64,000 nucleotides of DNA from a virus (lineage: Duplodnaviria; Heunggongvirae; Uroviricota; Caudoviricetes). Position 1 is the first letter of the stretch, and each line of letters starts with the position of its first letter. Position numbers and translations under genes: made by a program. The stretch is from IMG/VR virus record IMGVR_UViG_3300032163_000007, positions 21,587 through 85,586 of that record; one strand, 5' to 3'. This document shows, in pieces, positions 9,168 through 62,462 of the stretch. The notes under the pieces were generated by a model, which was given only the letters and a program-made list of their open reading frames with translations, had not been told where the DNA came from and did no database searches.

Positions 9168-10785
9168 GCCTATAAGCGCGAGCTTCTTCGACAAGCGAAT
9201 CAATAAAAACGCCGACCTATGGACAATGAAGCACAGGGCTCTCAAAAACAAGCCCTACAGGTTTAAGGGCAAAGCACCTAATCAACAGAGACCCTTTTTA
9301 CAACAGATGCTCAGGGATCCCGCTAGATACAAGTGTTACCAGAAGTCACGACAAGCGGGTGTATCTGAAAATTCAGTATCAGAAGTATTATACCTTTGTG
9401 ATATTCACGCCTATAGAAAATGGGTGTATGTATTCCCAACTTTCGGACAGATGAAGGACTTTGTGCAGACTCGAGTTGAGCCTGCTATTCAGTCCTCACC
9501 CTATATCACTAGTCTACTTGATAAAAAGAAGAACAACGTACACTTAAAGCACATTAAGAACTGCGATATTCTCTTCAGATCTGGTAGTAAAGCAAGCGCT
9601 GGTGAAGGTGTCGACGCAGATGGAGTATTCTTTGATGAACGAGATCGTATGAATACAAACATCCTAGATGCGTTTAAGGAAGGTCTATCAAGCTCAGACC
9701 TAGCTCTAATCAGAGACATTAGCACACCCAGCCTTCCAGGATCTGGTGTTAACATCAGCTTTGAAAAGTCCGATAAGAAATATTGGTTCGTTAAGTGCAC
9801 CAAGTGTGGGCATAAACAAAATCTAACGTACCCCGATAACCTAGTAAAGATTAAGTCAGAAAATAGATACACTTACAAATGCACCAAGTGTGGATGTGTT
9901 GATTGTATTGATAGGTCAGAGGGTGAGTGGGTCCCCGAAATTGTAGGAATACAGACAGAGGTCAGTGGGTATCAACTGTCCCAGTTAGACTGTCCTTGGA
10001 TCAGTGCAAGTGAGATCGTAGCTAAAAAAGATAAAATGTTTCCTCAGTTCTTCTACAACTACGTTTTGGGCAGACCCTACGTAGGTAGCAATCTATTAGT
10101 GCTGCAACAACACATTAATAATTGTATCAGTGATAAGTTTAATATCGTCACTAAGACTGGAAAGATCGTAGCAGGTGTTGACTGGGGAGATACCAGTTGG
10201 ATGGTTATAGGAATGCTTGTGGAGCAAAAGGTAGTTATATTATACTTTGAGAAAATAGCTTTCGCTGATCCAGAGATGCACATTCGACGAGTAAAGGAGC
10301 TTTTCGAGCAGTTTAAAGTGGATCTTATGGTATGCGATAGTGGCTATGGTAAGGATCGTAATGCCGTGCTGTTTAAAGAGCTCCCAGCAGGTAGAGTTGT
10401 TGCATGTAACTATGTAGACACAAGAAATTCAAGAATCATAGACAACGTTTGGGGCACATCTAAGCCGGCGGTTACTTCAAATAGAACCGTTAGTTTGAGA
10501 GTCATGGCAAGAGCTTGGCAGAGACAAGACTTCATATTCCCCCAAAACCTTCTCAATAATCCCAACGCTCTTGACTTCTTTAATCATTTAAAGGCCTTAG
10601 CCATCAAGCTAGAGGAAGTTGAAGAGGGTGTTGTTTTTGAACGTGTGGGGCACATAGGCGCCGACCACTTTTCTCACGCGTGCAATTACCTCTACATTGG
10701 AGCCTTCAAAGTCATGGGTAGATCCTATGTCGGGTTCATGCAAGAGGTCAAAGAAAACGAAAGAGCCCTCCTCGGAGGAAAGTAA
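9157..10785 (+). CDS. terminase large subunit
   Basis: Deviant Walker A 'KSRQAGVSE' (SRQxG[KV][ST] type); Walker B-like 'VFFDERD'; C-terminal acidic nuclease-like region; internal Cys4 zinc ribbon. Confidence 0.6.
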   Translation: MSSKPISASFFDKRINKNADLWTMKHRALKNKPYRFKGKAPNQQRPFLQQMLRDPARYKCYQKSRQAGVSENSVSEVLYLCDIHAYRKWVYVFPTFGQMKDFVQTRVEPAIQSSPYITSLLDKKKNNVHLKHIKNCDILFRSGSKASAGEGVDADGVFFDERDRMNTNILDAFKEGLSSSDLALIRDISTPSLPGSGVNISFEKSDKKYWFVKCTKCGHKQNLTYPDNLVKIKSENRYTYKCTKCGCVDCIDRSEGEWVPEIVGIQTEVSGYQLSQLDCPWISASEIVAKKDKMFPQFFYNYVLGRPYVGSNLLVLQQHINNCISDKFNIVTKTGKIVAGVDWGDTSWMVIGMLVEQKVVILYFEKIAFADPEMHIRRVKELFEQFKVDLMVCDSGYGKDRNAVLFKELPAGRVVACNYVDTRNSRIIDNVWGTSKPAVTSNRTVSLRVMARAWQRQDFIFPQNLLNNPNALDFFNHLKALAIKLEEVEEGVVFERVGHIGADHFSHACNYLYIGAFKVMGRSYVGFMQEVKENERALLGGK

Positions 10786-10811
10786 GTAAATTAACAGCGA
10801 TAGGAGCATTT

Positions 10812-11936
10812 ATGTCGAAAGAGTATTTAATAGCAAATGATCTAGGATATCTTCTAGATCTCATATGGAAGATCCCTCTGCTTACAAAGGCACAGGAAAG
10901 AGAGCTAACAGCTCTTGCAAAAGAAGTGAACAACCCGGATAAAGAAATTGCAAAGAAGGCCAAAGAGGCCAAGGATTTATTCGTTGTCAGTAACATGCGT
11001 CTAGTAATTAACATTGCCAGGCACTACTACCGTAAGGGCATAGAGTTAACGGATCTAGTACAAGAAGGAACATTTGGCTTAATAAGAGCTATAGAGAAGT
11101 TTGATCCCGATAGAGGCTTTAGGTTTAGTACGTACGCAACATACTGGATAGCTACGTTTATCTCGAAGGCTGCACAGAAGTCTACAGCACTATACATTCC
11201 TAATCACGCCAATCAAAAGCTTAACAGGTACTGCAAAATATCAAATGAGCTTATGGAGGCAGCCATAGACACTGACCTAGATAGATATACAATGATTAAA
11301 GAGCGTATGGCAGAGACTACCCTACAACTACCTATAGGAACTACTCTGAAGTCCTTCTTAAATAAATATCCTAATCGTTACCAGTACAACAAGACCTCCT
11401 GTATCTTAACGATAAAAGATGCAATGGAATCAGCAGATATTACTGATCTCCTAGACATGTTTCCTGATCGGTACGACGAGGCAAATCCCGACCAGCTACT
11501 AGAAAATCCTACAAGAGTTTTAATTGCAAAAGCAGTGCAGAGATCTCAGGGTGGAGACAGAGACTTTGAGCAGAGTGAGGAACTCTACAGAATAACACAG
11601 ACATTCTTTAGCTTAGAGGATAGTGTGGGTGAAAGCAACTTTACATTTGGCGATATTATCGTTGAAGAAGAATCCGCTGGAATGGAAGAAAAGACTCAGC
11701 TTCGAGAGGATGTAGAGATCGGAATGAAAGAAGCTCTTAATGACAAAGAGTTCTTTGTTCTGAAAGCTAGATATGGACTATTTGATAGTGACATTCTTGA
11801 GCTCGAAAAGATATCAGAAGTATTGGGAATCACAAAAGAGCGTATTCGTCAAATAGAGAGCACAGCAGCTAAGAAGCTTAGAGCATATTTTAAAGAGACG
11901 GAGTACGCATTACATTACGGAGGTAGGCATGTATAA
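10812..11936 (+). CDS. sigma-70 family RNA polymerase sigma factor, with a long insertion between regions 2 and 4
   Basis: Region 2 'RLVINIARHYYRKGIELTDLVQEGTFGLIRAIEKFDPDRGFRFSTYATYWI'; region 4.2 HTH 'ISEVLGITKERIRQIESTAAKKLR'. Confidence 0.8.
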   Translation: MSKEYLIANDLGYLLDLIWKIPLLTKAQERELTALAKEVNNPDKEIAKKAKEAKDLFVVSNMRLVINIARHYYRKGIELTDLVQEGTFGLIRAIEKFDPDRGFRFSTYATYWIATFISKAAQKSTALYIPNHANQKLNRYCKISNELMEAAIDTDLDRYTMIKERMAETTLQLPIGTTLKSFLNKYPNRYQYNKTSCILTIKDAMESADITDLLDMFPDRYDEANPDQLLENPTRVLIAKAVQRSQGGDRDFEQSEELYRITQTFFSLEDSVGESNFTFGDIIVEEESAGMEEKTQLREDVEIGMKEALNDKEFFVLKARYGLFDSDILELEKISEVLGITKERIRQIESTAAKKLRAYFKETEYALHYGGRHV

Positions 11937-20430: not shown

Positions 20431-20957
20431 GGATACTAGGTTTGGACGCCTCGTCCAAGAGCTTTGGATGGGCGCTATACGACACTTCAAAGGATCATAT
20501 ATTTGCCAGTGGTGTTATACCCCTTAGAGGCAATGACTTAGGGGAAAAGCTTACCACTATCTATGATGAGTTGAGAAAACTCTACTCCGAATTTTATCCA
20601 GATGACATTGTTATAGAGGACATCTATTTAAAGAATGTTAAAACTATCGAAACTCTTAGTGAGGTTCGAGGTGCTGCTAGATTGGCCGTATGGCCAGAGC
20701 CCCTTCATAAAATCTCAACCAATTCTATGAAGAGCGGTATAGGTTTAACTAAGGCAATGCAAGATCCAGAGGTCAAAGCTAAGATCGCCGACTTAAAGGC
20801 CACACTAACCACCTCGCAGTATAAGGAAGGTATGCGTAAAATCAAGAAACAGCTTGTTATGGACATAGTTAATAAGCAGTTCGGTCTATGTCTGACTTGT
20901 GATGATGAGAGTGACGCCTGTGCCATCGCATATACTTACGCAAAAACTCTAAAGTAA
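20427..20957 (+). CDS. ruvC: RuvC-family Holliday junction resolvase
   Basis: 'ILGLDASSKSFGWAL' (catalytic Asp); 'IEDIY' (Glu); 'DESDACAIAY' (D..D), the RuvC fold signature. Confidence 0.65.
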   Translation: MRILGLDASSKSFGWALYDTSKDHIFASGVIPLRGNDLGEKLTTIYDELRKLYSEFYPDDIVIEDIYLKNVKTIETLSEVRGAARLAVWPEPLHKISTNSMKSGIGLTKAMQDPEVKAKIADLKATLTTSQYKEGMRKIKKQLVMDIVNKQFGLCLTCDDESDACAIAYTYAKTLK

Positions 20958-20990
20958 CTTTTTTCTTAGTTTCTAGTATAATTAGTAATA
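20951..20990 (+). promoter_or_regulatory. variant of the AAAGTAAGTTTTT motif (AAAGTAACTTTTTT...TCTAGTATAAT) with a -10-like TAGTATAAT
   Basis: Matches the recurring intergenic motif; contains TATAAT. Confidence 0.35.
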
Positions 20991-24905: not shown

Positions 24906-24908
24906 AAT

Positions 24909-24985: not shown

Positions 24986-24988
24986 AGT

Positions 24989-25068: not shown

Positions 25069-25102
25069 TAAAGTAAGTTTTTTTAGACTTATAGATCCAT
25101 GT
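25069..25102 (+). promoter_or_regulatory. promoter-like motif AAAGTAAGTTTTTTT-N-TTATAGAT
   Basis: One of 7 copies of AAGTAAGTTTTT ... TATAG/CTAGT found 10-35 nt upstream of start codons. Confidence 0.45.
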
Positions 25103-25291
25103 ATGAAAATCACAGAATATAAAATAGTAGGATCTCAGAGAGCTTCAGATTTGGAACACAAAGTCAAGATGGGTCTAAGAGAGGGTTTCCAACCCCTTGG
25201 TGGGCCATTCTTCAGTACAATAGGAAGCTACTTCAGTCAAGCTCTAGTAAAATATGAGGAGGAAAAATGTTTAACAGTATCGGCGAAATAG
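25103..25291 (+). CDS. hypothetical protein
   Basis: Listed ORF immediately downstream of the promoter-like motif. Confidence 0.4.
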   Translation: MKITEYKIVGSQRASDLEHKVKMGLREGFQPLGGPFFSTIGSYFSQALVKYEEEKCLTVSAK

Positions 25292-26488: not shown

Positions 26489-26947
26489 TTGAAAACTCCA
26501 CAACTCGAACTTGCTGTCGTAAAATGGCTCAACCCCAGAATGAATCTCATTGTACCCAATGTGAGTTGGGGTCTTGTGAATCACGAGTGTGATCTATTAT
26601 CTATGTCCAAGTCTGGGTATCTAACAGAGATAGAACTAAAGGTATCCAAGTCAGATCTAATGAATGACTTCAAGAAGAGTCATACTCACTACGATAAGAA
26701 GATCAAGTATTTCTACTATGCCGTTCCAGAAGAATTAAAGGCTGTAGCTTTAGAGGTTATTCCTAAAGAGGCTGGACTCATAATAGCCTATAAAGCTAGG
26801 AATGGCCATATAAAAGCTGATGCCATTAAGTCTCCTATAGCTAGACCTGCAAAGGCTCTTAGTGATAAGGACCAGTTCCAACTGGCGCGTCTAGGCACCA
26901 TGAGAATTTGGAGCCTAAAGACGAAACTCCTAAAATACTTAAAGTAA
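26489..26947 (+). CDS. hypothetical protein (possible PD-(D/E)xK fold)
   Basis: TTG start; 'ECDLL...EIELK' resembles a D..E.K nuclease core (weak). Confidence 0.3.
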   Translation: MKTPQLELAVVKWLNPRMNLIVPNVSWGLVNHECDLLSMSKSGYLTEIELKVSKSDLMNDFKKSHTHYDKKIKYFYYAVPEELKAVALEVIPKEAGLIIAYKARNGHIKADAIKSPIARPAKALSDKDQFQLARLGTMRIWSLKTKLLKYLK

Positions 26948-26975
26948 GTTTTTTCTAAACCCTAGTAATCTACAT
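26941..26975 (+). promoter_or_regulatory. promoter-like motif AAAGTAAGTTTTTT-N-CCTAGTAAT
   Basis: Copy of the recurring motif; the upstream gene's TAA stop lies inside it. Confidence 0.45.
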
Positions 26976-32322: not shown

Positions 32323-32679
32323 ATGGACGAGGTGGTTCAGTATATTGTTGTACGCAAGGACCTCAACATGAGTAAAGGTAAGATGGCTGCACAAGTGGCA
32401 CATGCCAGCATTGCTACTGTCTATCCCTACCTATGGGACGCTGAGGTAAAGACATGGTTGGACAGGGCCTTCACAAAGATTATCTTAGAAGTAAAGAATC
32501 TAGCAGCTCTAGAAAAACTGGAACGTATGTGTATTGAGCGTCACATGGTGTTCAAGACAATAGTAGATAATGGCCGAACAGAGGTGGAGCCTAATACGCC
32601 CACATGCTTAGGGTTTAAGCCCTATAAAAAATCCCAGCTCGGTGACTTTCTCAAAAAGTACCAACTGTACAAAGATTAA
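32323..32679 (+). CDS. peptidyl-tRNA hydrolase, PTH2 family
   Basis: 'YIVVRKDLNMSKGKMAAQVAHAS' and 'DNGRTEVEPNTPTCLGFKP' match PTH2 conserved blocks; start set at the Met that gives a ~118-aa PTH2-sized product. Confidence 0.7.
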   Translation: MDEVVQYIVVRKDLNMSKGKMAAQVAHASIATVYPYLWDAEVKTWLDRAFTKIILEVKNLAALEKLERMCIERHMVFKTIVDNGRTEVEPNTPTCLGFKPYKKSQLGDFLKKYQLYKD

Positions 32680-32711
32680 AGTAAGTTTTCAAAAAGTTTA
32701 TAGGAGTATAT
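32677..32711 (+). promoter_or_regulatory. promoter-like motif TAAAGTAAGTTTTC-N-TTTATAGGAG
   Basis: Copy of the recurring motif. Confidence 0.45.
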
Positions 32712-33047
32712 ATGCAATCAATAAATATAGCAGGCCATCAAATAGACCTATACATAAGTCCCTCCCTAGAGGCGTTTAACCCACAAAATAGAGGCCTATT
32801 CGATCACAATAAAAATGACATATACATAGACAGCCATTTAGATAAAGATCTAAAGCAAGCAACTCTCGCACATGAGGTGCTTCACGCCATTTTTATGAGA
32901 AGTGGTGGAGAGAAATACTTGCAAGGCTTTGGTGTGGACGATGAGGCTGTCGAAACTCTAGTCCAGATTCTAGAGAATACCTTTTTTACATTCTTAAGGG
33001 GTAACACCAACTTTTACGAAAAAATTAATTTAGAAGGCGAGAAATAA
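32712..33047 (+). CDS. small HExxH metallopeptidase-like protein
   Basis: 'LAHEVLHAIF' zincin motif. Confidence 0.4.
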   Translation: MQSINIAGHQIDLYISPSLEAFNPQNRGLFDHNKNDIYIDSHLDKDLKQATLAHEVLHAIFMRSGGEKYLQGFGVDDEAVETLVQILENTFFTFLRGNTNFYEKINLEGEK

Positions 33048-45100: not shown

Positions 45101-45120
45101 GTTACAGTAGTTAAGGTGGT

Positions 45121-45150
45121 GGTGATTAGAAGCAGGGGCACAAGCCCCTG
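45121..45150 (+). terminator. rho-independent terminator
   Basis: AGCAGGGGC-acaa-GCCCCTGCT followed by ATGGTTTTC. Confidence 0.6.
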
Positions 45151-45715: not shown

Positions 45716-45844
45716 ATGAAGAAAGTAGCAAGTATCGTATTGGTTATGGCAGTAGTGGTAGTCCTCATAGGATGCGCCCCTAAGGCAGCAGTTAGCGCAG
45801 AAGCAGTAACAGCAAACGCGGTAGTAACAGTAGACGCAAAATAA
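45716..45844 (+). CDS. small lipoprotein (42 aa)
   Basis: RBS AAGGTGG; signal peptide with lipobox 'VLIGC'; not in the ORF track (<60 aa). Confidence 0.45.
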   Translation: MKKVASIVLVMAVVVVLIGCAPKAAVSAEAVTANAVVTVDAK

Positions 45845-45858
45845 AAACAATGGTTTTG

Positions 45859-45886
45859 AGGAACCCCTGCGGGGGTTCCATTTTTA
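45859..45886 (+). terminator. rho-independent terminator
   Basis: GGAACCCC-tgc-GGGGGTTCC followed by ATTTTT. Confidence 0.75.
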
Positions 45887-45887
45887 G

Positions 45888-46565: not shown

Positions 46566-47360
46566 ATGTCAAAAGCAGTAAAGTTAGCGTTAATTACCCC
46601 AACGGTCTATCTAGATAAGTTTGCTAGCCAGGGGGATATACACTTGATCCTATCTCATCTGATAGGAGAGAACACCTACACTGAATACTACAGGAAGCAG
46701 AAGAAGCTCAAGATTATGGACAACGGTTTGTTTGAGAACCACGTTGCTGAGCCCACTACAGTACTTCTCAAGAAAGCTGAGATTGTTGGAGCTGATGTTA
46801 TTGTCGCTCCAGATGTATTATATGATTGTGATGCTACTCTTGCCGAGCTTGACAAATTCCAAGAAGCCATGGCAAAGTCTAAGAAGAAGTACAAGGTCTT
46901 TGGTGTGCCTCAGGGTAAGAACTTAGATGACTACCTGAGATGCCATCGTGGCATGTACCTGAGAGGGGTGGACTTCATAGGTCTGTCTATACTCGCCGTA
47001 CCAAAAGCCTTCAAAGAGATCACTGGCACCGACGACATCAGTCTCAACAGAATGGTATGTATGAACTATCTTGAGGACCAGAGGATGGTTTTTGATGGTA
47101 TCAAGTATCACTGCTTGGGTCTGGGCTCCTTTGCTGGAGAGATAGCTGTAATGGCTCAACACAAATGGGTATATAGCAATGACAGCTGCAGCTTCTTCCA
47201 AACTGCTAATGTTAGACAGCTACCATACTTTGGTGGGTATGTTGTGGGTGGCAAGCCTGAGGCAAAACTTGAATTTAATATGATGTTAATGGATAGTGGG
47301 AAAGAAGCTGTAGCCCAGAAAAACATTGAGACTCTCAAAAGATATGCACAAAGAGCTTAA
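46566..47360 (+). CDS. tRNA-guanine transglycosylase-like TIM-barrel protein (DpdA candidate, DNA 7-deazaguanine transglycosylase)
   Basis: TGT-like blocks 'IMDNGLFE' (~DSGGFQ), 'DVIVAPDVLYDCDAT' (~MAFDEC), 'VFGVPQGKNLDDYLRC' (~GIVQGG..DLR), 'GVDFIGLS', 'LGLG'; no CxCxxC zinc site. Confidence 0.45.
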   Translation: MSKAVKLALITPTVYLDKFASQGDIHLILSHLIGENTYTEYYRKQKKLKIMDNGLFENHVAEPTTVLLKKAEIVGADVIVAPDVLYDCDATLAELDKFQEAMAKSKKKYKVFGVPQGKNLDDYLRCHRGMYLRGVDFIGLSILAVPKAFKEITGTDDISLNRMVCMNYLEDQRMVFDGIKYHCLGLGSFAGEIAVMAQHKWVYSNDSCSFFQTANVRQLPYFGGYVVGGKPEAKLEFNMMLMDSGKEAVAQKNIETLKRYAQRA

Positions 47361-47389
47361 GTAAGTTTTTATTCTTTCTAGTTTTATTT
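47358..47389 (+). promoter_or_regulatory. promoter-like motif TAAGTAAGTTTTTATT-N-TCTAGTTTTAT
   Basis: Copy of the recurring motif. Confidence 0.45.
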
Positions 47390-49018
47390 ATGAAATTCGA
47401 TGAAACCGTTTATTTACACGTAAGAAATAGCTTTGTCACTATAAAGTGCGAGTATATTACTGCGTTCCAAAAGCTCAAGAGAGAGCTATCCTTTCGTCCC
47501 ATGGGCTACAACTATAGTCCTAAGTTTAAGAGTGGCATGTGGGATGGATATATTCAGTTTGTTAGAGGTGACAAATTGATGACTGGGCTTCTACCTCTAA
47601 TCATAGAGGCATGCAAAGCCAATAAGTATCCATATAAAATCATTGATGAGCGCAAGGACCCCCTTAAAGAGCTTAATGAAATCAACCTCAGTAATGGCAT
47701 TACTCTCAGAGATGATCAGTATGAGGCCGTAGCTGAGGTAATTCATAACAAGAGGGGCATTGTGGCAGCTGCTACAAACGCAGGCAAAACATATATTGCT
47801 ACGGGCCTATATAAAGCTACAGGCCTAAAGACTCTATTCCTTACACATCGTGAAGAGCTCTTTACTCAGACCGAAGAAACCTTTGAAGGCATGCTTGGAG
47901 AAAAGATTGGTCACATCTGGGACAAGGACAACGACCACAACTTCAAGCTGACCATTGGAATGGTTCCCACAATAGCTAGGCGTCTTGAGAATCCCGAAGA
48001 AACTCTAAAGGGCCTGAAGAAGAGACTACTCGATCATAGTATAGAGTTACGTAAAGCCTGTGATGTGTTGAATAAGGTTGCAGGTCCTATTGGGATTAAG
48101 ACTTACACAGCTAAAGTAAAGAAGATTGAAAGCAATATGAAGAGAGTGCAAACTTCAGTTACTAACCTCACAAACAATATGGCCGCAGAGATCCAGAGAT
48201 GGAAAGATCTCAATAAGTACCTCTCTGAAGTAGAGATGGTTATAGTGGATGAAGCGCATCATAGTAGTGCTGAGACTTATGAGGATATTCTCTTAAAGTG
48301 CGACAGTGCATTCTACCGAGTGGGATTAACAGGTACTCCTGACTCCAAGGACAAGGTCAAAGATCTAAAGCTGAGAGGTTTGTTGGGGGAGGTCATATAT
48401 ACTATATCCAATCAGGAACTGATCGAGCTTGGAGTGAGCTCCACACCTACGATACACTTCCTTACTACACGTAAGCCTATTGTTGCTTCAGATTATCAGA
48501 GTGCCTATAAGTTAGGAATTATCAAGAACAGTGAGCGCAATGATCACATTGTTGAGGTATGTAAGAAGAAGCTAGCAGACAACAAGCCAGTCCTAATTCT
48601 AATCAACCATACAGACCATGGAGACCACCTGCACGAGTACCTCCTCAGGAGTGGATTCAAAGCCGACGATGTGGCGTTCATTCATGGTGGAAGCGTTGAC
48701 AGCCATAGAAAGGCAAAATTGACGGCTTTCAAGGAGGGTAAGGTGCCTATACTAATAGCATCTCTCATCTTACAGGAAGGAGTCAGCGTAAATAGCATAG
48801 GAGCGTTGATATTTGCCTTAGGTGGTAAGTCAAACGTACGAGTGTTACAGATTGCAGGTCGTGCTCTACGACTTAATAACTATGGCAATAAGGTGGAGAT
48901 CTACGACTTTTTAGACTATGGAGATCAATACCTGAAAGAGCATAGTAAGGAGAGGTATAGCACATATAAGAAAAGCTTCGGAGTAGAAGCTTTTGCAGAA
49001 GGGACACCAGAAGTATGA
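47390..49018 (+). CDS. SF2 DEAH-box helicase (UvsW-like)
   Basis: Motif I 'ATNAGKTYIA'; motif II 'VDEAHH'; motif III 'GLTGTP'; motif VI 'QIAGRALR'. Confidence 0.65.
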   Translation: MKFDETVYLHVRNSFVTIKCEYITAFQKLKRELSFRPMGYNYSPKFKSGMWDGYIQFVRGDKLMTGLLPLIIEACKANKYPYKIIDERKDPLKELNEINLSNGITLRDDQYEAVAEVIHNKRGIVAAATNAGKTYIATGLYKATGLKTLFLTHREELFTQTEETFEGMLGEKIGHIWDKDNDHNFKLTIGMVPTIARRLENPEETLKGLKKRLLDHSIELRKACDVLNKVAGPIGIKTYTAKVKKIESNMKRVQTSVTNLTNNMAAEIQRWKDLNKYLSEVEMVIVDEAHHSSAETYEDILLKCDSAFYRVGLTGTPDSKDKVKDLKLRGLLGEVIYTISNQELIELGVSSTPTIHFLTTRKPIVASDYQSAYKLGIIKNSERNDHIVEVCKKKLADNKPVLILINHTDHGDHLHEYLLRSGFKADDVAFIHGGSVDSHRKAKLTAFKEGKVPILIASLILQEGVSVNSIGALIFALGGKSNVRVLQIAGRALRLNNYGNKVEIYDFLDYGDQYLKEHSKERYSTYKKSFGVEAFAEGTPEV

Positions 49019-49977
49019 CTAAACTAGACGAAGTATACCAGAGACTAGCACTGCCGAAGGAATTATCCTTTGTCCGGGACAACCTACTGTACATGGTACT
49101 AGCAGGCAGCCATGCCTATGGTACCAATACTGCAGAGTCTGACGAAGACTTCAGAGGAGTTTGTATAGCGCCTCTGAGATACTATATGACCAACCAAGGT
49201 TTTGAGCAGCGTGAGGATAAGACCAACGACATCACTGTGTACAGTATTAACAAGTTTTTTCAGTTGGCTTCTGAAGTCAACCCGAATATCATTGAACTGC
49301 TTTTTATTGATCCCAAAGAGGCTGTTTATGTGCATCCTCTAATGGAGGAAATTCTCAAGAAGAAAGATATGTTTCTCAGCAGAAAGGCCGAGCACACCTT
49401 CTTAGGATATGCCTATGCACAGCTACAGCGTATTAGAACGCATAAGAAGTGGCTTGATAAGCCTCTGACGCAGCCAAAGCGTGAAGATTTCGGCTTGGAG
49501 CCAGTTCCACGTATAGCACATGAGAAGATCAAGGCGTTTTACACCCTTGGAGCTGACTGCTACAACATGGTAGGCAGTGACTTTGGTGACTATTTACGTA
49601 GGGAAGATGCATTCAACACGGCTCAAAGCTCATGGGATAAGTATAACGGCTGGCAAAAGAGCCGAAATCCTAAGAGATTCGAGTTAGAGAAGGCTTATTC
49701 CTACGATGTTAAGCATGGTATGCACCTTTGCCGTCTGCTATGTATGGCAGAAGAGATTGCTGTGGAGCGGACTATTAAAGTTAGACGTCCAGATGCAGAG
49801 TTCCTCTTAGATATTCGCAATGGCAAGTTCACGTATGAGGAAATCCTCCAATGGGCTGCTGATAAAGAGGCGAGAGTTAAAGCTGCGTTTGAGAGGAGCA
49901 GCCTCCCATGGGGTGTAAATCATGAGGCAATCAACTCCCTTTTAGAGAATACTCTAAGAAGTTTCTTTGGAATCTGA
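49015..49977 (+). CDS. nucleotidyltransferase-fold protein (Pol beta superfamily)
   Basis: 'LAGSHAYGTNTAESDEDFRGVCI' (GS...D.D signature). Confidence 0.5.
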   Translation: MTKLDEVYQRLALPKELSFVRDNLLYMVLAGSHAYGTNTAESDEDFRGVCIAPLRYYMTNQGFEQREDKTNDITVYSINKFFQLASEVNPNIIELLFIDPKEAVYVHPLMEEILKKKDMFLSRKAEHTFLGYAYAQLQRIRTHKKWLDKPLTQPKREDFGLEPVPRIAHEKIKAFYTLGADCYNMVGSDFGDYLRREDAFNTAQSSWDKYNGWQKSRNPKRFELEKAYSYDVKHGMHLCRLLCMAEEIAVERTIKVRRPDAEFLLDIRNGKFTYEEILQWAADKEARVKAAFERSSLPWGVNHEAINSLLENTLRSFFGI

Positions 49978-50003: not shown

Positions 50004-50016
50004 CTATAATTAAGAC
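50004..50016 (+). promoter_or_regulatory. HEG-associated element CTATAATTAAGAC abutting the ATG
   Basis: Shared TATAATTAAG core. Confidence 0.45.
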
Positions 50017-50808
50017 ATGATTAAAACTGAAGAAGAAAAAAGGAAGATCTACGCAAAGATCTCAGCAACAAAGAGAACTCCTGAGGGCAGGAAGAGACAC
50101 GCTGAGGCCTTAAGGAAGTCAAAGGAGAAGTGGAAACAGACAAGAGCTAGAAATAAAAAACCAGCACATAATAAGCTACCTGATACAGCGAAAGTCAAGA
50201 AAGTGTGCTTAAATTGTGGTAAAGAGATGCTTGTACTGCCCTGCTATTCAGAAACTAAGCACTTTTGCAGCAGACTATGTGTGACCCTATACAGAAAGGG
50301 AAGGGTTCATGAGGGGTATAACCTTAACAGCCATCATGACAAGGGTCGTTGGGGAATTATAGGTAGATACCAGGGCATTCTATTTAGAAGCCTTCTAGAG
50401 CTCTCGTTTATTACAAAAAAACTAAAAGAGAGCCAAAGCCTGCAGTCAGAACCCTTTTCTATAGTGCTTCAAGACTATTTACAGGAAGGAGAGTTTAAGG
50501 CCTTTAGTATAAAACCTAGTACTCTATACTTTCCCGATTTCCTCGTAGATGGTACTCTTCTTGTGGAGATTAAGCCTAGCAACCAGGTGAGCCAGAATCT
50601 TAATCAAGCAAAGACGTTAGCTGCACAAAGATACTGTGATACGAGAGGCCTCAAGTATCAGTTGCTCACTGAGCACGACATCGATCCTCAATACTACTAT
50701 AATACAATGAAGTTCGTATCCCAGAGTCCAAAGGAGGATTTCGTTTGGTATAAAAAGCCTACTAATAAGAGGCTAATCAAACAGTTTAACATGGAGGGAA
50801 AATTATGA
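50017..50808 (+). CDS. putative homing endonuclease: zinc-ribbon N-region + PD-(D/E)xK-like C-terminal domain
   Basis: 'CLNCGKEM...FCSRLCVTLY' matches the HEG repeat family; 'FPDFLVDG...LVEIKP' looks like a D..E.K nuclease core. Confidence 0.45.
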   Translation: MIKTEEEKRKIYAKISATKRTPEGRKRHAEALRKSKEKWKQTRARNKKPAHNKLPDTAKVKKVCLNCGKEMLVLPCYSETKHFCSRLCVTLYRKGRVHEGYNLNSHHDKGRWGIIGRYQGILFRSLLELSFITKKLKESQSLQSEPFSIVLQDYLQEGEFKAFSIKPSTLYFPDFLVDGTLLVEIKPSNQVSQNLNQAKTLAAQRYCDTRGLKYQLLTEHDIDPQYYYNTMKFVSQSPKEDFVWYKKPTNKRLIKQFNMEGKL

Positions 50809-51539: not shown

Positions 51540-52237
51540 TGAAGGGCTGGCAAAAGACAAGTCTTATTGATTTTGGGGACGAGATAGTTTCGATGTTTTT
51601 CTATGGAGGCTGTAACTTTAGGTGTCCTTTTTGTCACAACAGGGATCTGGTGCTTAATCCGGACAGTTTGCCGGATATCGCCGAAAGCGATGCATTCCAG
51701 TATCTCAGTGACAAAAGAAAGATATACGATGGGGTCGTTATAAGTGGTGGGGAACCTACACTTGACCCCCGTATCGCTGAGATCTGTGGGATGTTTAAGA
51801 GGTCCGGCTTTACAATAAAACTGGACACAAATGGAAGTAGACCCGAAGTACTTAAGAGCTTGGTTGACGCCAAGCTGGTTGATTACGTTGCGATGGACAT
51901 CAAAACATCGCTTACTAAGTACCCACAGGCTGCACCTTTTATTGCTGCCGAGGATCTTGTAGCTGATGTCAAGCAGTCTGTGGGTTTTCTGATAAATGGC
52001 AAAGTGGATTACGAGTTCCGGTCTACCATATATCCTCCTTGGTTTGAAGCCGAGGACTGGGAGGAGATAGCTGAGTGGCTCAAAGGAGCCAAGCGCTACT
52101 ACTTACAGCAGTTCAATCCCAAGAATACTTTGGATCCCGAAGCTACGAAGGTAATTCCTCACAGAAAAGACTATCTAGAGATTAGAGCTGAGTATTTATC
52201 AGGATTTATGGATCTCTGCGAAGTCCGACTCATCTAA
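51539..52237 (+). CDS. nrdG: anaerobic ribonucleotide reductase activating protein NrdG (radical SAM)
   Basis: 'GGCNFRCPFCHN' CxxxCxxC cluster; 'ISGGEPTLDP'; NrdD is present in the same genome. Confidence 0.7.
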   Translation: MKGWQKTSLIDFGDEIVSMFFYGGCNFRCPFCHNRDLVLNPDSLPDIAESDAFQYLSDKRKIYDGVVISGGEPTLDPRIAEICGMFKRSGFTIKLDTNGSRPEVLKSLVDAKLVDYVAMDIKTSLTKYPQAAPFIAAEDLVADVKQSVGFLINGKVDYEFRSTIYPPWFEAEDWEEIAEWLKGAKRYYLQQFNPKNTLDPEATKVIPHRKDYLEIRAEYLSGFMDLCEVRLI

Positions 52238-52268
52238 AGTAAGTTTTTCTTTTCTTATAGATAAATGT
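52235..52268 (+). promoter_or_regulatory. promoter-like motif TAAAGTAAGTTTTTCTTTTCTTATAGAT
   Basis: Copy of the recurring motif; the nrdG TAA stop lies inside it. Confidence 0.45.
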
Positions 52269-53723
52269 ATGAAATACAATTTATACCCACAGCATCAGCA
52301 CGATTTTTTAGCCAGACTAGATACTAGCGTAAAAGCTAGAGGTGGTAACCTATTCTTTGTTGGTGGTTGTGTTCGAGATGCCCTTCGTGGTAATTCAAAT
52401 CCCAGCGATACTGATATTCTGGTAGTTCGAATCACTGATGAGCAGTTTAGAGAGGCTCTAGAAGAGTTTAAGAATACTCCATCATTTTCAACCATTACCT
52501 ACGACTTTGTAGGTAAGAGCTTCGGCGTGTACAAAGTTAGTGTGACTTCAAAAGTTGAGGGAGATTACTTCATCGGTAATGGTGTCAGTAGTGTTATTGA
52601 CTTTGCATTCCCCCGTAAAGAGGTAAGTACTGGTGACGGCCACAGAGACTTTGAGAATGAGTTTGATCCATTTATGCCCATCGAAGAAGACCTAGCACGT
52701 AGAGATTTTACTATGAACGCCATTGCTATCAGCTTTGATGGTAAGACCATCGTTGACCCCTTCAAAGGAAGAACTGACATTAACAAAGGCATACTACGAA
52801 GCATTGGCACTAATTCTATCAGTGAGGACTACTTGAGAGCGCTTCGAGGTGTTCAGTTCGTAGCTAGGTTTAACCTCTATATCAATGCTGATACTCTGAA
52901 GCAGATTCAAGACAATGTGTACCTAATTGATACTATTTCTGAGGATCGTATCCGCCAGGAACTGGCGAAGCTGCTTAAGGCTCCATTTGTTCATAGAGGG
53001 TTTGAACTCCTCAAGAATACTGGGTTGTTACAAGCCATTTGTGAGCCTCTATACAATTGCAACGCAAACAACAACTACAACTGGTTGCATCACAAGTACA
53101 ATACATACTGCCATACCATTCAAGCCATTGACAATTTGTCAAGAACCTGTGATCCTGTGGTAGCAGTTGCAGCAATGCTCCATGACATTGGAAAGCCTCT
53201 AACTGAGAGCGTAGATGAGTATGGAATCTATCACAACTACCGCCACGAAGAGGCTAGTGTAAAACTGGCCAAGGTTTGGCTGGAAAGCTACCACTACAGT
53301 AATGACGACACCGAACAGATCTTATGGCTGATTGCCAATCATATGGGACAACCTCATAGAGAGGCTAGTCCAGGACGACGCAAGCAGATCAAGAAGCTGC
53401 TGAGATCAGCTAAAGATAAGTCATGGGTAATCAACCTATTCCTACTAAAACAAGCAGACTCAAACGCCAGCCTGGACTTTGTTCATACCAATGAGGTCAT
53501 GGACTGGATCTCTACGATGACTGATATCATTGAGCAGCAAGAGGCATTCTCACTTAAAGACCTACAGGTGCATGGCTTTGATATGCTGGAACTTGGGCTT
53601 AAGGGACCAGCTATTGGTCACATGCTTAACAAGCTACTCACTGACGTAATTGAGGGAGACATTGTCAACGAAAGAGATGCTCTACTGGACTACGTGAAAG
53701 TTACCCAACTGGTTGTAGTATGA
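52269..53723 (+). CDS. cca: CCA-adding tRNA nucleotidyltransferase with C-terminal HD domain
   Basis: Head motif 'FVGGCVRDALRG...DTDILV'; 'RRDFTMNA'; HD motif 'AAMLHDIGKP'. Confidence 0.75.
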   Translation: MKYNLYPQHQHDFLARLDTSVKARGGNLFFVGGCVRDALRGNSNPSDTDILVVRITDEQFREALEEFKNTPSFSTITYDFVGKSFGVYKVSVTSKVEGDYFIGNGVSSVIDFAFPRKEVSTGDGHRDFENEFDPFMPIEEDLARRDFTMNAIAISFDGKTIVDPFKGRTDINKGILRSIGTNSISEDYLRALRGVQFVARFNLYINADTLKQIQDNVYLIDTISEDRIRQELAKLLKAPFVHRGFELLKNTGLLQAICEPLYNCNANNNYNWLHHKYNTYCHTIQAIDNLSRTCDPVVAVAAMLHDIGKPLTESVDEYGIYHNYRHEEASVKLAKVWLESYHYSNDDTEQILWLIANHMGQPHREASPGRRKQIKKLLRSAKDKSWVINLFLLKQADSNASLDFVHTNEVMDWISTMTDIIEQQEAFSLKDLQVHGFDMLELGLKGPAIGHMLNKLLTDVIEGDIVNERDALLDYVKVTQLVVV

Positions 53724-54166
53724 TAGGATGTAAACAGTGTGGCCTCTGCTGCAAGGCAATTGCTCTGAGGTACTCTAAGAAGTATGTCAGAGATGTTGTC
53801 AGGACTTCAAAGCGAGCAGGAGACAAGAATACTGACGGGCTACTCATGCTCAATCACTGGAAGCGTATTCCAAGGCTTGAGGCTGAGGCTATTAACCCTG
53901 AGTATATTGGCACACACGAGGGTTACTACTTTTACAGGTGTAACAAGCTCAAAGACAATAAATGCAGTGATCACGGAGGAAAAACCAGAATTTGCAGTGG
54001 GTATCCGTTCTATGATGACTTTCCTGATCCCCTAGAGGTAAATGACAAACTCATGACGAGTAAGTGTGGCTTTTACATGACCCCAGAGAATACAGAGGAA
54101 TATGTAGAGCACCTGTTACTGTGCAAGCCCTTTGGCAAATGGATTCCACCCAACCAATTAACTTAA
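53720..54166 (+). CDS. YkgJ-family Cys-cluster protein (CxxCxxCC)
   Basis: 'CKQCGLCCK' plus C-terminal Cys/His. Confidence 0.45.
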   Translation: MIGCKQCGLCCKAIALRYSKKYVRDVVRTSKRAGDKNTDGLLMLNHWKRIPRLEAEAINPEYIGTHEGYYFYRCNKLKDNKCSDHGGKTRICSGYPFYDDFPDPLEVNDKLMTSKCGFYMTPENTEEYVEHLLLCKPFGKWIPPNQLT

Positions 54167-54210
54167 TGTATTTTTATACATTTCAATAGAAATAAATGAA
54201 GGAGAGACGT

Positions 54211-56430: not shown

Positions 56431-56679
56431 ATGAAGGTTATTGAACAAAGTGTAGAGATTATTGACTTGGGTGGAACACCCCTGGAAATTTACAAGAAGC
56501 TTGAGAACATCGGCAGGGTTTGCTATAAGTCAGAAGATAAAATCACAGATGAGACCCATGACAAGTTTCTCAGGGATGTCATAAGAAGAGGTCACGAGTC
56601 TGTACTTGAGCACCACAACATCACGTTGAGGTTTATCACGGACCGTGGTGTAACCCATGAAATTGTCATGCCCGCTTAA
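56431..56679 (+). pseudogene. thyX: thyX (FAD-dependent thymidylate synthase), N-terminal part; the gene is split by a frameshift
   Basis: 'RVCYKS...HESVLEHHNITLRFITDRGVTHEIV' matches the ThyX N-terminal half; stops 4 codons later. Confidence 0.6.
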
Positions 56680-57076
56680 CTTTGCCAGCTACTCGCAAGA
56701 AAGTACACGCTATGTGAACTATAATAAGGTTGGTATGGAAGTGATCCTTCCAGTTGAGTTTGCGAACACTATCACTGATGTGAATAGAAGTACGCAGTAT
56801 TGGCAGTGGCAAGAGGCTATGAAACGAGCCGAGGACCATTACAACAATATGATCAAAAATGGTGCTGTGCCACAGCTTGCCAGATCAGTTCTACCAAACA
56901 GTTTGAAAACGGAGTTAGTGATGACAGCGAACATCAGAGAATGGCGACACTTTCTCAAGTTGCGTACAGCTATGGCAGCGCATCCACAGCTAAGGAGCCT
57001 AGCTACAACTCTACAAACTATGCTTGCTACCGAACTCCCTATTTTCTTTGAGGTCACCCCTAAGTTGGATCAGTAG
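56657..57076 (+). pseudogene. thyX: thyX C-terminal part in the +1 frame; the RHR part of the ThyX motif is replaced
   Basis: 'ASYSQESTRYVNY' is the ThyX S..S.RY motif, but the positions that should be RHR read CPL/PLN. Confidence 0.6.
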
Positions 57077-57085
57077 CAAGAATGA

Positions 57086-57099
57086 GTAATAATTAAGAT
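57086..57099 (+). promoter_or_regulatory. HEG-associated element GTAATAATTAAGAT abutting the ATG
   Basis: Shared AATTAAGAT core. Confidence 0.45.
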
Positions 57100-58155
57100 A
57101 TGAAAAAGAGCATGGGATACACAGAAGACACAAAGATCCTTACAGAGGATGGTTGGAGGTGGGTTAAAGATCTGGAGAGTGGGTGCATGGTCCACACCCT
57201 CGACTATCAGGGGCAACTATGTGTAACTCCGGTTCAAAAAGTTATATGTGAGGAATACTCTGGAGAAGTTCTCCATTTGAAGTCTTCAAAGATAGACCTG
57301 GATATAGGGGCCCTCCAACCTCTCTTTGTGAGAACAGAGAATAAAAGTCCTTTACATGTGCCCGCTCAGGATGTAACTCATAAGCATATTTTTCTAAAGG
57401 GAGCTCAAATCCCTGAAATTATGGCTGAGCAGATTGTTGGGTTGCCGTCAGTGGTTGATGGCGGGTTCCTAAAAAGAGTTGTTGCAGAGAGATATCTAGA
57501 TACGAACCAGTTTCTACTTTTCTTAGGACTTTGGGTAACGGATGGGTCTATCCGATTAACCGGTAGAGCTGGAAATCAGGTTAGAATATCCCAAGTTAAA
57601 CCTTCCGTCAGAGCTGTGATAGATAAACTTCTAGCTGCCTTAGACTTTAAGTACTCTTATAGTTGCAAAAGCTACTACATGTACTCTAAACAACTTTTCT
57701 GCTTCCTTCGGGAGCAGTTCATAAAAAATAACGACCCTAAAAAAGGATATTACGTTAGTATCCCTTTATGGATAAAAAAGATGCACGCGTTACACTTAGA
57801 GCATTTAGTAAAGGGGTTAATGCTTGGAGATGGAAGATTAGAGCCTAACTGCGAGTACAGTGGGTACCTTACAACAGCTTCGGAGGCTCTAGCTGAAGAT
57901 TTCGCAGAGATAGCCTTAAAGATGGGAAGATGCGCAACAATCCGGAAGAAGGGAGTGGGTATGGTTCATAGTAAGCAGAAAGTTCCCTACTACTTTGTGT
58001 CTCTTCTTAAACCTATTACACACTACGCAAGGACTACGCAAGTCTTAAGCAAATTTTATAGTGGTCCTCTATACAGTATATTTCTAGATGGCCAGAAACC
58101 TGTATATATAATGCAAAAAGGTAAAACTTTATGGGGAGGTACAAATGGCGAATGA
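57100..58155 (+). CDS. free-standing LAGLIDADG homing endonuclease with an intein-like (Hint) N-terminal segment
   Basis: 'LFLGLWVTDGS' and 'LVKGLMLGDGRL' LAGLIDADG motifs; N-terminal 'DTKILTEDGWRWVKDL' resembles intein block A; no C-terminal HN splice junction. Confidence 0.6.
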   Translation: MKKSMGYTEDTKILTEDGWRWVKDLESGCMVHTLDYQGQLCVTPVQKVICEEYSGEVLHLKSSKIDLDIGALQPLFVRTENKSPLHVPAQDVTHKHIFLKGAQIPEIMAEQIVGLPSVVDGGFLKRVVAERYLDTNQFLLFLGLWVTDGSIRLTGRAGNQVRISQVKPSVRAVIDKLLAALDFKYSYSCKSYYMYSKQLFCFLREQFIKNNDPKKGYYVSIPLWIKKMHALHLEHLVKGLMLGDGRLEPNCEYSGYLTTASEALAEDFAEIALKMGRCATIRKKGVGMVHSKQKVPYYFVSLLKPITHYARTTQVLSKFYSGPLYSIFLDGQKPVYIMQKGKTLWGGTNGE

Positions 58156-59170: not shown

Positions 59171-59204
59171 ATTCACACCCAGAAAATTAAATGTAAGAAT
59201 TCTT

Positions 59205-59232
59205 TAAGTTTTAGTATAATACATCTAAAGGA
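59205..59232 (+). promoter_or_regulatory. promoter-like motif TTTTAGTATAATACATCTAAAGGAG
   Basis: Member of the GTA(A)TATACATC motif family; contains TATAAT. Confidence 0.45.
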
Positions 59233-62389: not shown

Positions 62390-62424
62390 CATAATCAACC
62401 AAAAATCTTAATGTATCTTTCCTC

Positions 62425-62462
62425 TTTTGTATAGTAATATACATCAAAACTAGGAGGAATTC
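62425..62462 (+). promoter_or_regulatory. promoter-like motif TTTTGTATAGTAATATACATCAAAACTAGGAGG
   Basis: Member of the GTAATATACATC family. Confidence 0.45.

What the first reader, a model, noticed from the sequence alone, without database searches (positions are those of the whole stretch)
52235..52268. Recurring intergenic motif TAAAGTAAGTTTTT-N6-8-(T)TATAG/CTAGT: candidate phage-specific promoter, possibly read by the phage sigma factor
At least seven copies lie 10-35 nt upstream of start codons, with core AAGTAAG at 25071, 26942, 32679, 44231, 47359 and 52237, a variant at 20951, and partial copies at 10783 and 45095. The upstream gene's TAA stop is often embedded in the motif. Spacing between AAGTAAG and TATAG is 12-14 nt, unlike sigma-70 promoters. 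The genome encodes its own sigma-70-family protein (10812-11936) that could recognise it.
Basis: seen in the sequence. Interest (0 to 1): 0.6.

Follow-up and report, generated by a model that had tools for sequence, protein, structure and literature searches.

The report
Phage-specific promoter motif, probably leaderless
A 35-bp two-part DNA signal recurs in front of genes of an uncultivated large phage and is most likely the phage's own promoter type; this is a familiar kind of element, and its link to the phage sigma factor is unproven.

Summary
T-AAAGTAAGTTTTT with at most 1 mismatch occurs 7 times in the window, all on the + strand, against 0.2 expected. An eighth copy lies at 37624 and two more just upstream of the window. 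Every copy is intergenic or overlaps the upstream stop codon, and every copy has an invariant TAG 21-23 nt after the block start.

New evidence for a promoter:
- At six sites, including a weak copy before the sigma gene, the start codon ATG begins exactly 11 nt after the T of TAG. These genes lack the usual ribosome-binding site.
- A pyrimidine-purine step sits at that position in 14 of 18 sites.
- This fits a -35-like block, a TAG(T/A)A(T/A) -10 region, and a start at that A, giving leaderless mRNAs.
- There is no hairpin, so it is not a terminator.

The sigma link is not shown. The sigma is RpoD-like, and its -35-reading helix is almost canonical, which predicts TTG; the block has no TTG. 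A second motif, yATAATTAAG-NN-ATG, found mainly before homing-endonuclease genes, is a rival target for this sigma. No relatives carrying the motif were found, so conservation could not be tested.

Verdict: a new member of a known kind (phage-specific promoters), of moderate interest.

The parts
52235..52269 (+). Motif copy given in the finding: TAAAGTAAGTTTTT, 9 nt, TAG (52258-52260), 8 nt, ATG of the CCA-adding enzyme gene (52269). Predicted start at A 52269, giving a leaderless mRNA.
47357..47390 (+). Strong copy (TTAAGTAAGTTTTT...CTAG). ATG of the UvsW-like helicase gene (47390) lies 11 nt after the T of TAG, and there is no Shine-Dalgarno sequence.
44230..44264 (+). Strong copy after the tRNA-Gly and tRNA-like region. 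It is followed by a 5' leader with the palindrome GTAAGAGCGCTCTTAC, a Shine-Dalgarno sequence, and the SPFH/Band 7 gene (44312).
37623..37657 (+).
32677..32712 (+). Strong copy. ATG of gene 32712 lies 11 nt after the T of TAG.
26940..26974 (+). Strong copy (CTAG type, TAGTAATCTACATC) upstream of the virion-protein gene 26997 and RtcB.
25069..25103 (+). Strong copy immediately after the last tRNA of the cluster. ATG of gene 25103 lies 11 nt after the T of TAG, and there is no Shine-Dalgarno sequence.
20950..20985 (+). Strong copy (AAAGTAAC...CTAGTATAAT) at the head of the tRNA gene cluster (21433-25059).
10778..10812 (+). Weak copy (GAAAGTAAGTAAAT...ATAG). The ATG of the sigma gene lies exactly 11 nt after the T of TAG.
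10812..11936 (+). Phage sigma-70-family gene (374 aa). Regions 1.2-2 and 4 are RpoD/RpoS-like and region 3 is divergent. It is the candidate reader of the motif.
62409..62443 (+). Weaker variant (TAATGTATCTTTCC...TATAGTAATATACATC), 19 bits against a null maximum of about 10.7, upstream of gene 62465.
54164..54198 (+). Weaker variant (TAATGTATTTTTAT...AATAG), 12.8 bits, upstream of the Cpn10-like gene.
59189..59223 (+). Borderline variant (AAATGTAAGAATTC...TTTAGTATAATACATC), 9.2 bits, preceded by a hairpin at 59140-59173.

Best explanation
The motif is a class of phage-specific promoters used by the host core RNA polymerase with a sigma-70-family holoenzyme.

Proposed anatomy, numbered from the predicted start:
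- A conserved block (T/C)T-AAAGTAAG-TTTTT at about -35 to -21. It covers the -35 window and the first half of the spacer.
- A variable T/A-rich stretch of 7-9 bp.
- An invariant TAG that opens a -10 region TAG(T/A)A(T/A).
- Initiation at a purine, usually A, 11 nt downstream of the T of TAG.

At six sites that A is the A of the start codon, so the transcript is leaderless. At the other sites it gives a 5' leader of about 14-50 nt that carries a Shine-Dalgarno sequence.

The genes served are of the middle (delayed-early) type:
- DNA replication and nucleotide metabolism;
- the tRNA cluster;
- RNA repair (RtcB, CCA-adding enzyme, UvsW-like helicase).

The specificity factor for the upstream block is most simply the phage's own RpoD-like sigma. 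Its gene carries a weak copy of the motif, which would give positive feedback. This last step is inferred, not shown; I put it at about 0.4. The promoter reading as such I put at about 0.75.
For: Shown by computation:
1. Seven copies with at most 1 mismatch against 0.2 expected, all on the coding strand. Ten strong copies occur in 80.6 kb of the contig, none inside a coding sequence.
2. The four further sites that a position-weight scan places above the null maximum are also on the + strand and intergenic.
3. TAG is present at a fixed distance in every strong copy.
4. ATG begins exactly 11 nt after the T of TAG at 6 of 18 sites (binomial tail 8e-7) and at no neighbouring offset more than twice. 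A pyrimidine-purine step sits at that position in 14 of 18 sites (3e-6), and it is an A in 14 of 18.
5. Three of these six genes appear in the list of 26 genes with no Shine-Dalgarno-like sequence, whereas 83 of 109 genes have one. No alternative in-frame start is seen before the GG motif of the CCA enzyme, and Pfam domains confirm the N-termini.
6. The same phage uses the same design with a canonical hexamer: yAyAAT, 6 nt, ATG before seven homing-endonuclease genes.
7. No shared hairpin: minimum free energy -3.4 to -11 kcal/mol, z-scores -1.0 to +1.6. Ordinary intrinsic terminators exist elsewhere.
8. Canonical TTGACA-N17-TATAAT sites are not enriched (33 found against 36.6 expected) and are almost absent from intergenic DNA.
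9. The sigma gene is real and RpoD-like. Residues that read -12 and the extended -10 in E. coli sigma-70 are changed (Q437T, T440S, E458Q; alignment, numbering from established knowledge). This is compatible with an unusual TAG element there.

By analogy: SPO1 uses a phage sigma, Gp28, for its middle genes (PMC13401047).
Against: - No transcription start data exist.
- No related genome carries the motif, so conservation could not be tested.
- The predicted -10 hexamer TAGnnn has T at its last position in only 8 of 18 sites. That is weak for a sigma-70-family -10 element.
- Columns 4-9 after TAG have a TATAAT-like consensus (A 14/18, A 15/18, T 10/18). If that were the hexamer, the start would fall downstream of the six ATGs.
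- The sigma's region 4.2 recognition helix is nearly identical to that of primary sigmas (TKERIRQIE against TRERIRQIE). This predicts a TTG-type -35, which the block lacks.
- A second motif with a perfect TATAAT is an alternative target for this sigma.
- Only 80.6 kb of the 172-kb genome could be read.
Confidence: 0.62

Rival explanations
1. The motif is an activator-dependent middle promoter that works like a T4 middle promoter. The block AAAGTAAGTTTTT, centred near -28, would be the binding site of a separate phage DNA-binding activator that replaces the -35 contact. The host primary sigma, or the phage sigma, would read only the -10 region. The phage sigma would then be a middle gene product that drives a later class, for example the yATAATTAAG motif.
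For: - The block sits where the MotA box sits. That box is centred at -30, 12 +/- 1 bp from the -10 element (PMC2988021). Here 9-12 bp separate the block from the -10 region.
- The block has no TTG, although the sigma has a canonical region 4.2 helix.
- A weak copy precedes the sigma gene, as T4 gene 55 is served by a middle promoter (from memory).
- A -10-only second motif exists that could be the sigma's own target.
Against: - No MotA, MotCF or AsiA Pfam family was found on any protein of the 80.6 kb examined.
- The block bears no resemblance to the MotA box consensus (a/t)(a/t)(a/t)TGCTTtA.
- T4 middle promoters need an excellent TAnnnT -10 element, whereas here the -10 is weak apart from TAG.
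- The sigma keeps an intact region 4, which argues that it reads an upstream element.
Confidence: 0.2
2. Block 1 is itself the -10-like element of a phage-sigma promoter, as in phiEco32, where AATGTA is centred at -11.5. Transcription would then start in or just after the T-run. TAG and the ATG 11 nt later would lie in a short leader without a Shine-Dalgarno sequence.
For: - phiEco32 gp36 promoters have the consensus AATGTA at -11.5 (PMC12276001).
- The core here is AA(A/T)GTA, and four weak sites read exactly AATGTA.
- T-AAAGT fits TAnnnT.
Against: - It leaves the invariant TAG, the fixed TAG-to-ATG distance and the pyrimidine-purine step 11 nt after TAG unexplained.
- No conserved purine is seen at the implied start.
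- gp36 is only a distant sigma homologue, whereas this sigma is RpoD-like.
- Leaders without a Shine-Dalgarno sequence would be odd in a genome where 83 of 109 genes have one.
Confidence: 0.08
3. The motif acts at the RNA level. It would be an intercistronic processing (RNase) site, or a translation-initiation signal independent of Shine-Dalgarno pairing, placed about 33 nt before start codons on long polycistronic transcripts.
For: - It overlaps the stop codon of the upstream gene at 6 of 8 in-window copies, and two copies directly follow tRNAs.
- The distance to the ATG is fixed at six sites.
Against: - The distance to the start codon is 48-108 nt at the other strong sites, which have their own Shine-Dalgarno sequences.
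- There is no RNA structure.
- Apart from the motif and the second motif, no other promoter-like signal was found in the 80 kb of densely packed, co-directional genes examined.
- A 14-nt exact sequence plus a spaced TAG is more than known RNase or ribosomal protein S1 sites need.
Confidence: 0.07
4. The motif is an intrinsic terminator or other transcription stop signal that uses the T-run.
For: There is a T-run directly after the stop codon of the upstream gene.
Against: - No G+C-rich hairpin precedes the T-run, and folding is no better than for shuffled sequence.
- Canonical terminators with hairpins are present elsewhere in the same genome and look different.
Confidence: 0.01

Closest known systems
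Bacillus phage SPO1 middle promoters read by the phage sigma Gp28
   Same: - A large lytic myovirus relies on host core RNA polymerase and a phage-encoded sigma-70-family protein with regions 2 and 4.
- The phage sigma Gp28 transcribes the middle genes (PMC13401047).
- That these promoters are bipartite, with phage-specific -35 and -10 sequences, and serve replication-type genes is my recollection, not checked here.
- The terminase here is most similar (35%) to SPO1-group terminases.
   Different: - The sequences are unrelated. The SPO1 middle consensus AGGAGA / TTTNTTT is quoted from memory.
- Gp28 is a small, divergent sigma, whereas this sigma is RpoD/RpoS-like over regions 1.2-2 and 4.2.
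- The conserved upstream block here is 14 bp long and runs into the spacer.
- Six promoters here appear to give leaderless mRNAs.
Bacteriophage T4 middle promoters (MotA box plus sigma-70 -10 element; sigma appropriation)
   Same: - A phage-specific element centred near -30 replaces the -35 hexamer, a fixed short distance upstream of a -10 element.
- It serves prereplicative genes (replication, nucleotide metabolism, tRNAs) (PMC2988021).
   Different: - There is no TGCTT core.
- No MotA or AsiA homologue was detected in the 80 kb read.
- The -10 is weak apart from TAG, whereas T4 needs an excellent TAnnnT.
- This phage has its own sigma with a region 4.
phiEco32 middle/late promoters read by the phage sigma gp36
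   Same: - A phage-encoded sigma redirects host core polymerase to a short phage-specific element AATGTA (PMC12276001).
- The core of block 1 here is AA(A/T)GTA.
   Different: - In phiEco32 the element is the -10 (centred at -11.5). Here the geometry places it near -30.
- gp36 is a distant sigma homologue that works with the co-factor gp79.
- No homology between gp36 and this sigma was tested.
T4 late promoters (TATAAATA, gp55)
   Same: The comparison applies to the second motif (yATAATTAAG) rather than to the finding. It is a -10-only element without a -35, found before a portal gene and free-standing homing-endonuclease genes.
   Different: - The sequence differs.
- The sigma here has a region 4, which gp55 lacks (from memory).
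- Assignment of the second motif to the late class is a guess.

Membership tests
Sigma-70-family bipartite promoter | Two conserved elements on the coding strand upstream of genes, at a fixed spacing compatible with sigma domains 4 and 2 (16-18 bp between hexamers). | tested here: met
   (T/C)TAAAG / AAAGTA lies 16-18 bp before TAGnnn, and the TAG offset is 21-23 nt in all strong copies. All copies are co-directional with genes and intergenic.
Sigma-70-family bipartite promoter | A -10 hexamer with A at position 2 and T at position 6 (TAnnnT). | tested here: inconclusive
   T and A of TAG are each present in 17 of 18 sites, but position 6 is T in only 8 of 18. A better TATAAT-like consensus lies 3 nt further downstream, but it conflicts with the six start codons.
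Sigma-70-family bipartite promoter | A TTGACA-like -35 hexamer. | tested here: not met
   There is no TTG in the block. Canonical promoters are not enriched.
Sigma-70-family bipartite promoter | Transcription initiates 6-8 nt downstream of the -10 element. | not testable with these tools
   Only indirect evidence: a pyrimidine-purine step in 14 of 18 sites and ATG in 6 of 18 sites at +11 from the T of TAG.
Promoter read by the phage sigma (10812-11936) | Holoenzyme with this sigma, and not host holoenzyme, initiates at the motif. | not testable with these tools
   The sigma is real. Contact residues for -12 and the extended -10 are changed, but the region 4.2 helix is canonical. Co-occurrence across genomes could not be tested because no relative was found.
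T4-type middle promoter (sigma appropriation) | MotA box (a/t)(a/t)(a/t)TGCTTtA centred at -30. | tested here: not met
   The block is TAAAGTAAGTTTTT. Its position is similar, but the sequence is not.
T4-type middle promoter (sigma appropriation) | MotA and AsiA homologues encoded by the phage. | tested here: inconclusive
   No MotA, MotCF or AsiA Pfam hit in any gene of the 80.6 kb, using precomputed hits and scans.
phiEco32 gp36-type promoter | AATGTA centred at -11.5 relative to the start. | tested here: inconclusive
   The hexamer AA(A/T)GTA is present. Its position relative to the start cannot be measured, and the indirect evidence places it near -30.
T7-like single-subunit RNA polymerase promoter | About 23 bp conserved from -17 to +6 with the start after TATA, and a single-subunit RNA polymerase gene. 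| tested here: not met
   The stretch corresponding to -11 to -6 is variable here. No such polymerase gene is present in the 80.6 kb. TATAG is replaced by CTAG in 4 of 10 strong copies.
Intrinsic terminator | A G+C-rich hairpin directly followed by a U-run. | tested here: not met
   No hairpin is present; z-scores are -1.0 to +1.6.

The most novel reading that the evidence does not exclude
A phage-encoded sigma that is close to primary sigmas has been retuned by a few substitutions: Q437T, T440S and E458Q at the -12 and extended -10 contacts, and R584K in region 4.2. It would read a private promoter made of a 14-bp -35/spacer block plus a TAG-type -10. That promoter is placed so that many transcripts, including the sigma's own, are leaderless. 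The phage's DNA may also be chemically modified, since it carries 7-deazaguanine pathway genes and a PurA/PurZ-like gene. This would be a new sigma-promoter specificity pair and a self-reinforcing switch that does not depend on ribosome-binding sites.
Probability: 0.25. Interest if true: 0.55.

Novelty: new member of a known kind. Interest (0 to 1): 0.38.

Why it matters
If confirmed, the motif gives the transcription map of the middle-type genes of an uncultivated 172-kb phage lineage that has no sequenced close relative. These genes cover replication, the tRNA cluster and RNA repair.

It would also pair an RpoD-like phage sigma with a non-canonical promoter. That pair could inform how few substitutions change sigma specificity, and it could serve as an orthogonal expression pair.

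The apparent use of leaderless mRNAs by two different promoter-like motifs in one phage is a testable and fairly unusual design.

The general phenomenon is textbook: large phages carry their own promoter consensus and their own sigma factors.

Tried and rejected
1. Comparative test, which failed for lack of relatives:
- megablast of 12 kb against 50,697 phage records found nothing.
- The sigma has no homologue above about 47% partial identity among 5.8 billion proteins, apart from itself.
- Sigma-related loci L121 and L122 share only generic region 2 similarity.
- The terminase has no close relative in IMG/VR.
- Homologues of the phage-specific protein 27570-28658 (47-61% identity) lie on contigs of 28, 50 and 35% G+C without the motif.
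- Pattern scans of viral contigs and metagenome contigs returned only single chance hits.
- The only other contig of the phage found, L126, is 100% identical.

2. A literature search for the motif string gave only an unrelated repeat in phage Felix O1.

3. The terminator and structured-RNA idea was rejected.

4. The Bacteroidetes-type -7 element (TAnnTTTG, from memory) was considered for GTAAGTTTTT. I rejected it because there is no upstream TTTG and the phage uses strong Shine-Dalgarno sequences.

5. The FliA-type -35 element (TAAAGTTT, from memory) was considered. I rejected it because there is no GCCGATAA-like -10 and the sigma scores far better as RpoD/RpoS than as FliA.

6. The T7-like promoter reading (TATAG as the start) was rejected; see the membership test.

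7. The only minus-strand gene carries a weak helix-turn-helix and sits beside a palindromic AAAGTAA...TTACTTT. I considered it as the block-binding factor, but it is an HNH homing endonuclease. The minus-strand half of the palindrome lacks TAG, so it is not counted as a motif copy.

Full report
**Source and context**

The window is bases 100,697-164,696 of a 171,862-bp metagenomic contig (ENA ERZ27247924, k141_804020). I could read 80.6 kb of it: the window plus 9.5 kb upstream and 7.2 kb downstream.

It is a large phage with about 43% G+C. Nearly all genes are on the + strand. Its gene content includes:
- a gp32-like single-strand binding protein, a RecA/UvsX-like protein, SbcCD-like proteins, a DnaB helicase and a PolA-type polymerase;
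- a terminase 35% identical to those of SPO1-group Bacillus phages;
- a portal protein and an anaerobic ribonucleotide reductase;
- at least 22 tRNA genes;
- RNA repair genes RtcB, RlaP-type nucleotidyltransferase, CCA-adding enzyme and a Ro/TROVE protein.

No sequenced phage is close to it.

Yes.
- The heptamer AAGTAAG alone is not enriched: 17 found against 14.5 expected.
- The 13-mer AAAGTAAGTTTTT with at most 1 mismatch occurs 7 times against 0.20 expected, and no shuffle reaches 7. All seven are on the + strand.
- Two more strong copies lie 8.1 and 4.3 kb upstream of the window, in front of the DnaB and PolA gene groups.
- The T before the block is conserved, and TAG follows 21-23 nt after the block start in every strong copy.
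- A two-block weight matrix built from the ten strong copies finds four further sites above the best score of ten random sequences (about 10.7 bits): 62410, 69084, 54165 and 66739. All are on the + strand and intergenic, and no hit of that strength lies inside a gene.
- These weaker sites read TTAATGTA(T/A) instead of TTAAAGTAAG.
- The 'partial' copy before the sigma gene (10779) keeps the TAG spacing. The one at 45095 does not and is probably chance.
- At six of the eight in-window copies the upstream gene's TAA lies within the block. The other two follow tRNAs.

**What argues for a promoter**

The strongest new observation is a fixed distance to start codons.
- At six sites the ATG begins exactly 11 nt after the T of TAG. 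These are 25103, 32712, 47390 (UvsW-like helicase), 52269 (CCA enzyme), 10812 (the sigma gene) and an in-frame ATG at -8108. The binomial tail is 8e-7, and no neighbouring offset has more than two.
- Three of these genes are in the list of 26 genes with no Shine-Dalgarno-like sequence, while 83 of 109 genes have one.
- For the CCA enzyme and the helicase, Pfam domains leave no room for a later start.
- Across all 18 strong and weak sites, the same position carries a pyrimidine-purine step in 14 (tail 3e-6) and an A in 14. This matches the known preference at bacterial start sites (established knowledge).

The simplest reading is that transcription starts at that A. Six mRNAs would then be leaderless, and the others would have leaders of about 14-50 nt with a Shine-Dalgarno sequence.

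Working back from that start:
- TAG opens the -10 region, with consensus TAG(T/A)A(T/A).
- (T/C)TAAAG / AAAGTA falls in the -35 window, 16-18 bp upstream.
- The rest of the block (AAG TTTTT) fills the upstream half of the spacer.

Further points:
- The region does not fold: minimum free energy -3.4 to -11 kcal/mol, z-scores -1.0 to +1.6.
- Normal hairpin terminators occur elsewhere in the genome.
- Canonical TTGACA-N17-TATAAT sites are not enriched (33 against 36.6 expected) and are nearly absent from intergenic DNA.
- The genes served are replication, nucleotide metabolism, the tRNA cluster and RNA repair. This is the set that T4 and SPO1 express as middle genes (PMC2988021; PMC13401047).

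**A second motif that bears on the interpretation**

While listing genes without a Shine-Dalgarno sequence I found yATAATTAAG.
- There are 8 exact ATAATTAAG in the window, all on the + strand, against 1.05 expected.
- In seven genes a TATAAT-like hexamer is followed by exactly 6 nt and then ATG. This is the canonical distance from a -10 element to a start site.
- All seven are homing-endonuclease-like: four HNH, one EndoVII/HNH, one TnsA-like and one LAGLIDADG. They include the only minus-strand gene of the region.
- Looser copies precede the portal gene and two other genes.

This has two consequences. It shows independently that this phage places promoter-like -10 elements so that ATG is at +1, which supports the leaderless reading of the finding. 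It also provides a rival target for the phage sigma.

**Who reads the motif?**

The ORF 10812-11936 is a genuine sigma-70-family protein. It has Pfam regions 2 and 4, and its best NCBIfam matches are RpoD and RpoS over regions 1.2-2. It has no close homologue anywhere.

I aligned it to primary sigmas and numbered it by E. coli sigma-70 (numbering from established knowledge).
- Unchanged or conservatively changed melting residues: Y430 and W434 are kept, and W433 becomes Y.
- Changed contacts for -12 and the extended -10: Q437T, T440S, R441K and E458Q, with H455 kept. This fits an unusual element such as TAG at or just upstream of the -10.
- The region 4.2 recognition helix is TKERIRQIE against TRERIRQIE. 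E585, R588 and Q589 are kept, which predicts a TTG-type -35. The block has no TTG.

The sigma's intact region 4 argues that it reads some upstream element, and the finding is the only bipartite motif seen. Its residues do not predict this particular block, however.

The alternative is an activator bound to the block, as MotA binds its box centred at -30 in T4. This has no positive support: no MotA or AsiA family was found in the 80.6 kb. More than half of the genome is unread.

The resemblance of AA(A/T)GTA to the phiEco32 gp36 element AATGTA at -11.5 is a lead for a different register, in which block 1 is the -10. That register leaves TAG and the ATG spacing unexplained.

**Weak points**
- There are no start-site data and no comparative data.
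- The last position of the proposed hexamer is T in only 8 of 18 sites.
- Columns 4-9 after TAG have a TATAAT-like consensus that cannot be the hexamer for the six leaderless genes.
- The exact register is therefore uncertain, even though the promoter reading is robust.

**Verdict**

I put the promoter interpretation at about 0.75 and the link to the phage sigma at about 0.4, since it is plausible but unshown.

This is a new member of a well-known kind, the phage-specific promoter consensus in a large phage that encodes a sigma factor. The leaderless design and the RpoD-like sigma give it moderate interest.

Noticed in passing
window 21560-21574, 23760-23774, 39631-39645, 43291-43305, 50005-50019, 57088-57102; L125:13545-13560 (minus strand); looser copies at 12187, 17953, 25880: A second recurrent motif, yATAATTAAG. 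In seven genes a TATAAT-like hexamer lies exactly 6 nt before the ATG, with no Shine-Dalgarno sequence. All seven genes are homing-endonuclease-like. Looser copies precede the portal gene and two other genes. It is a candidate -10-only (late-type?) leaderless promoter.
   Followed up: partly
window 41039-41152: A full-length match to Rfam YrlA (Y RNA-like, RF02553), 41 bits, E 1e-6, below the gathering score of 69. It lies directly upstream of the TROVE/Ro-like gene 41298-42755. A degenerate copy of the motif (AAAGTAC...CTAG, about 40883) and a TTGACG-N15-TATACT site (40833) lie upstream of it.
   Followed up: partly
window 45101-45887: About 790 nt without a convincing ORF and with no Rfam match even at E up to 1. 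It lies between the SPFH gene and a terminator plus tRNA-Thr. It contains G+C-rich hairpins and may be an unknown non-coding RNA or an intron remnant.
   Followed up: no
window 34052-35220, 36810-37625, 30321-31562: Genes for QueD (PTPS), a QueE-like radical SAM enzyme, FolE2 GTP cyclohydrolase and an adenylosuccinate synthetase homologue (PHROG annotated as PurZ-like). The phage DNA may carry 7-deazaguanine and/or other base modifications, which would affect promoter recognition.
   Followed up: no
window 28603-29799, 32278-32679, 40484-40849, 49015-49977, 52269-53723: An unusually complete RNA repair and translation rescue set: RtcB ligase, Pth2 peptidyl-tRNA hydrolase, an RF-1-domain (ArfB-like) protein, an RlaP nucleotidyltransferase and a CCA-adding enzyme, alongside at least 22 tRNAs.
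   Followed up: no
window 56431-58155: thyX (Pfam Thy1) is split into two overlapping ORFs (56431-56679 and 56657-57076), followed at once by a LAGLIDADG endonuclease gene (57100-58155). The anaerobic reductase likewise has a separate 64-aa ORF with an NRDD hit (16272-16466).
   Followed up: no
window 44270-44290: The leader downstream of the 44231 copy carries a second AAAGTAAG inside a perfect palindrome, GTAAGAGCGCTCTTAC. It could be a 5' stabilising hairpin or an operator.
   Followed up: no
window about 66735-66760 (outside the window; L125 about 13590-13612): In the only divergent intergenic region, the + strand copy has an A-run instead of the T-run, and its spacer holds TTACTTT. This gives the palindrome AAAGTAAgaaaaaaTTACTTT. 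The minus-strand half lacks TAG.
   Followed up: partly
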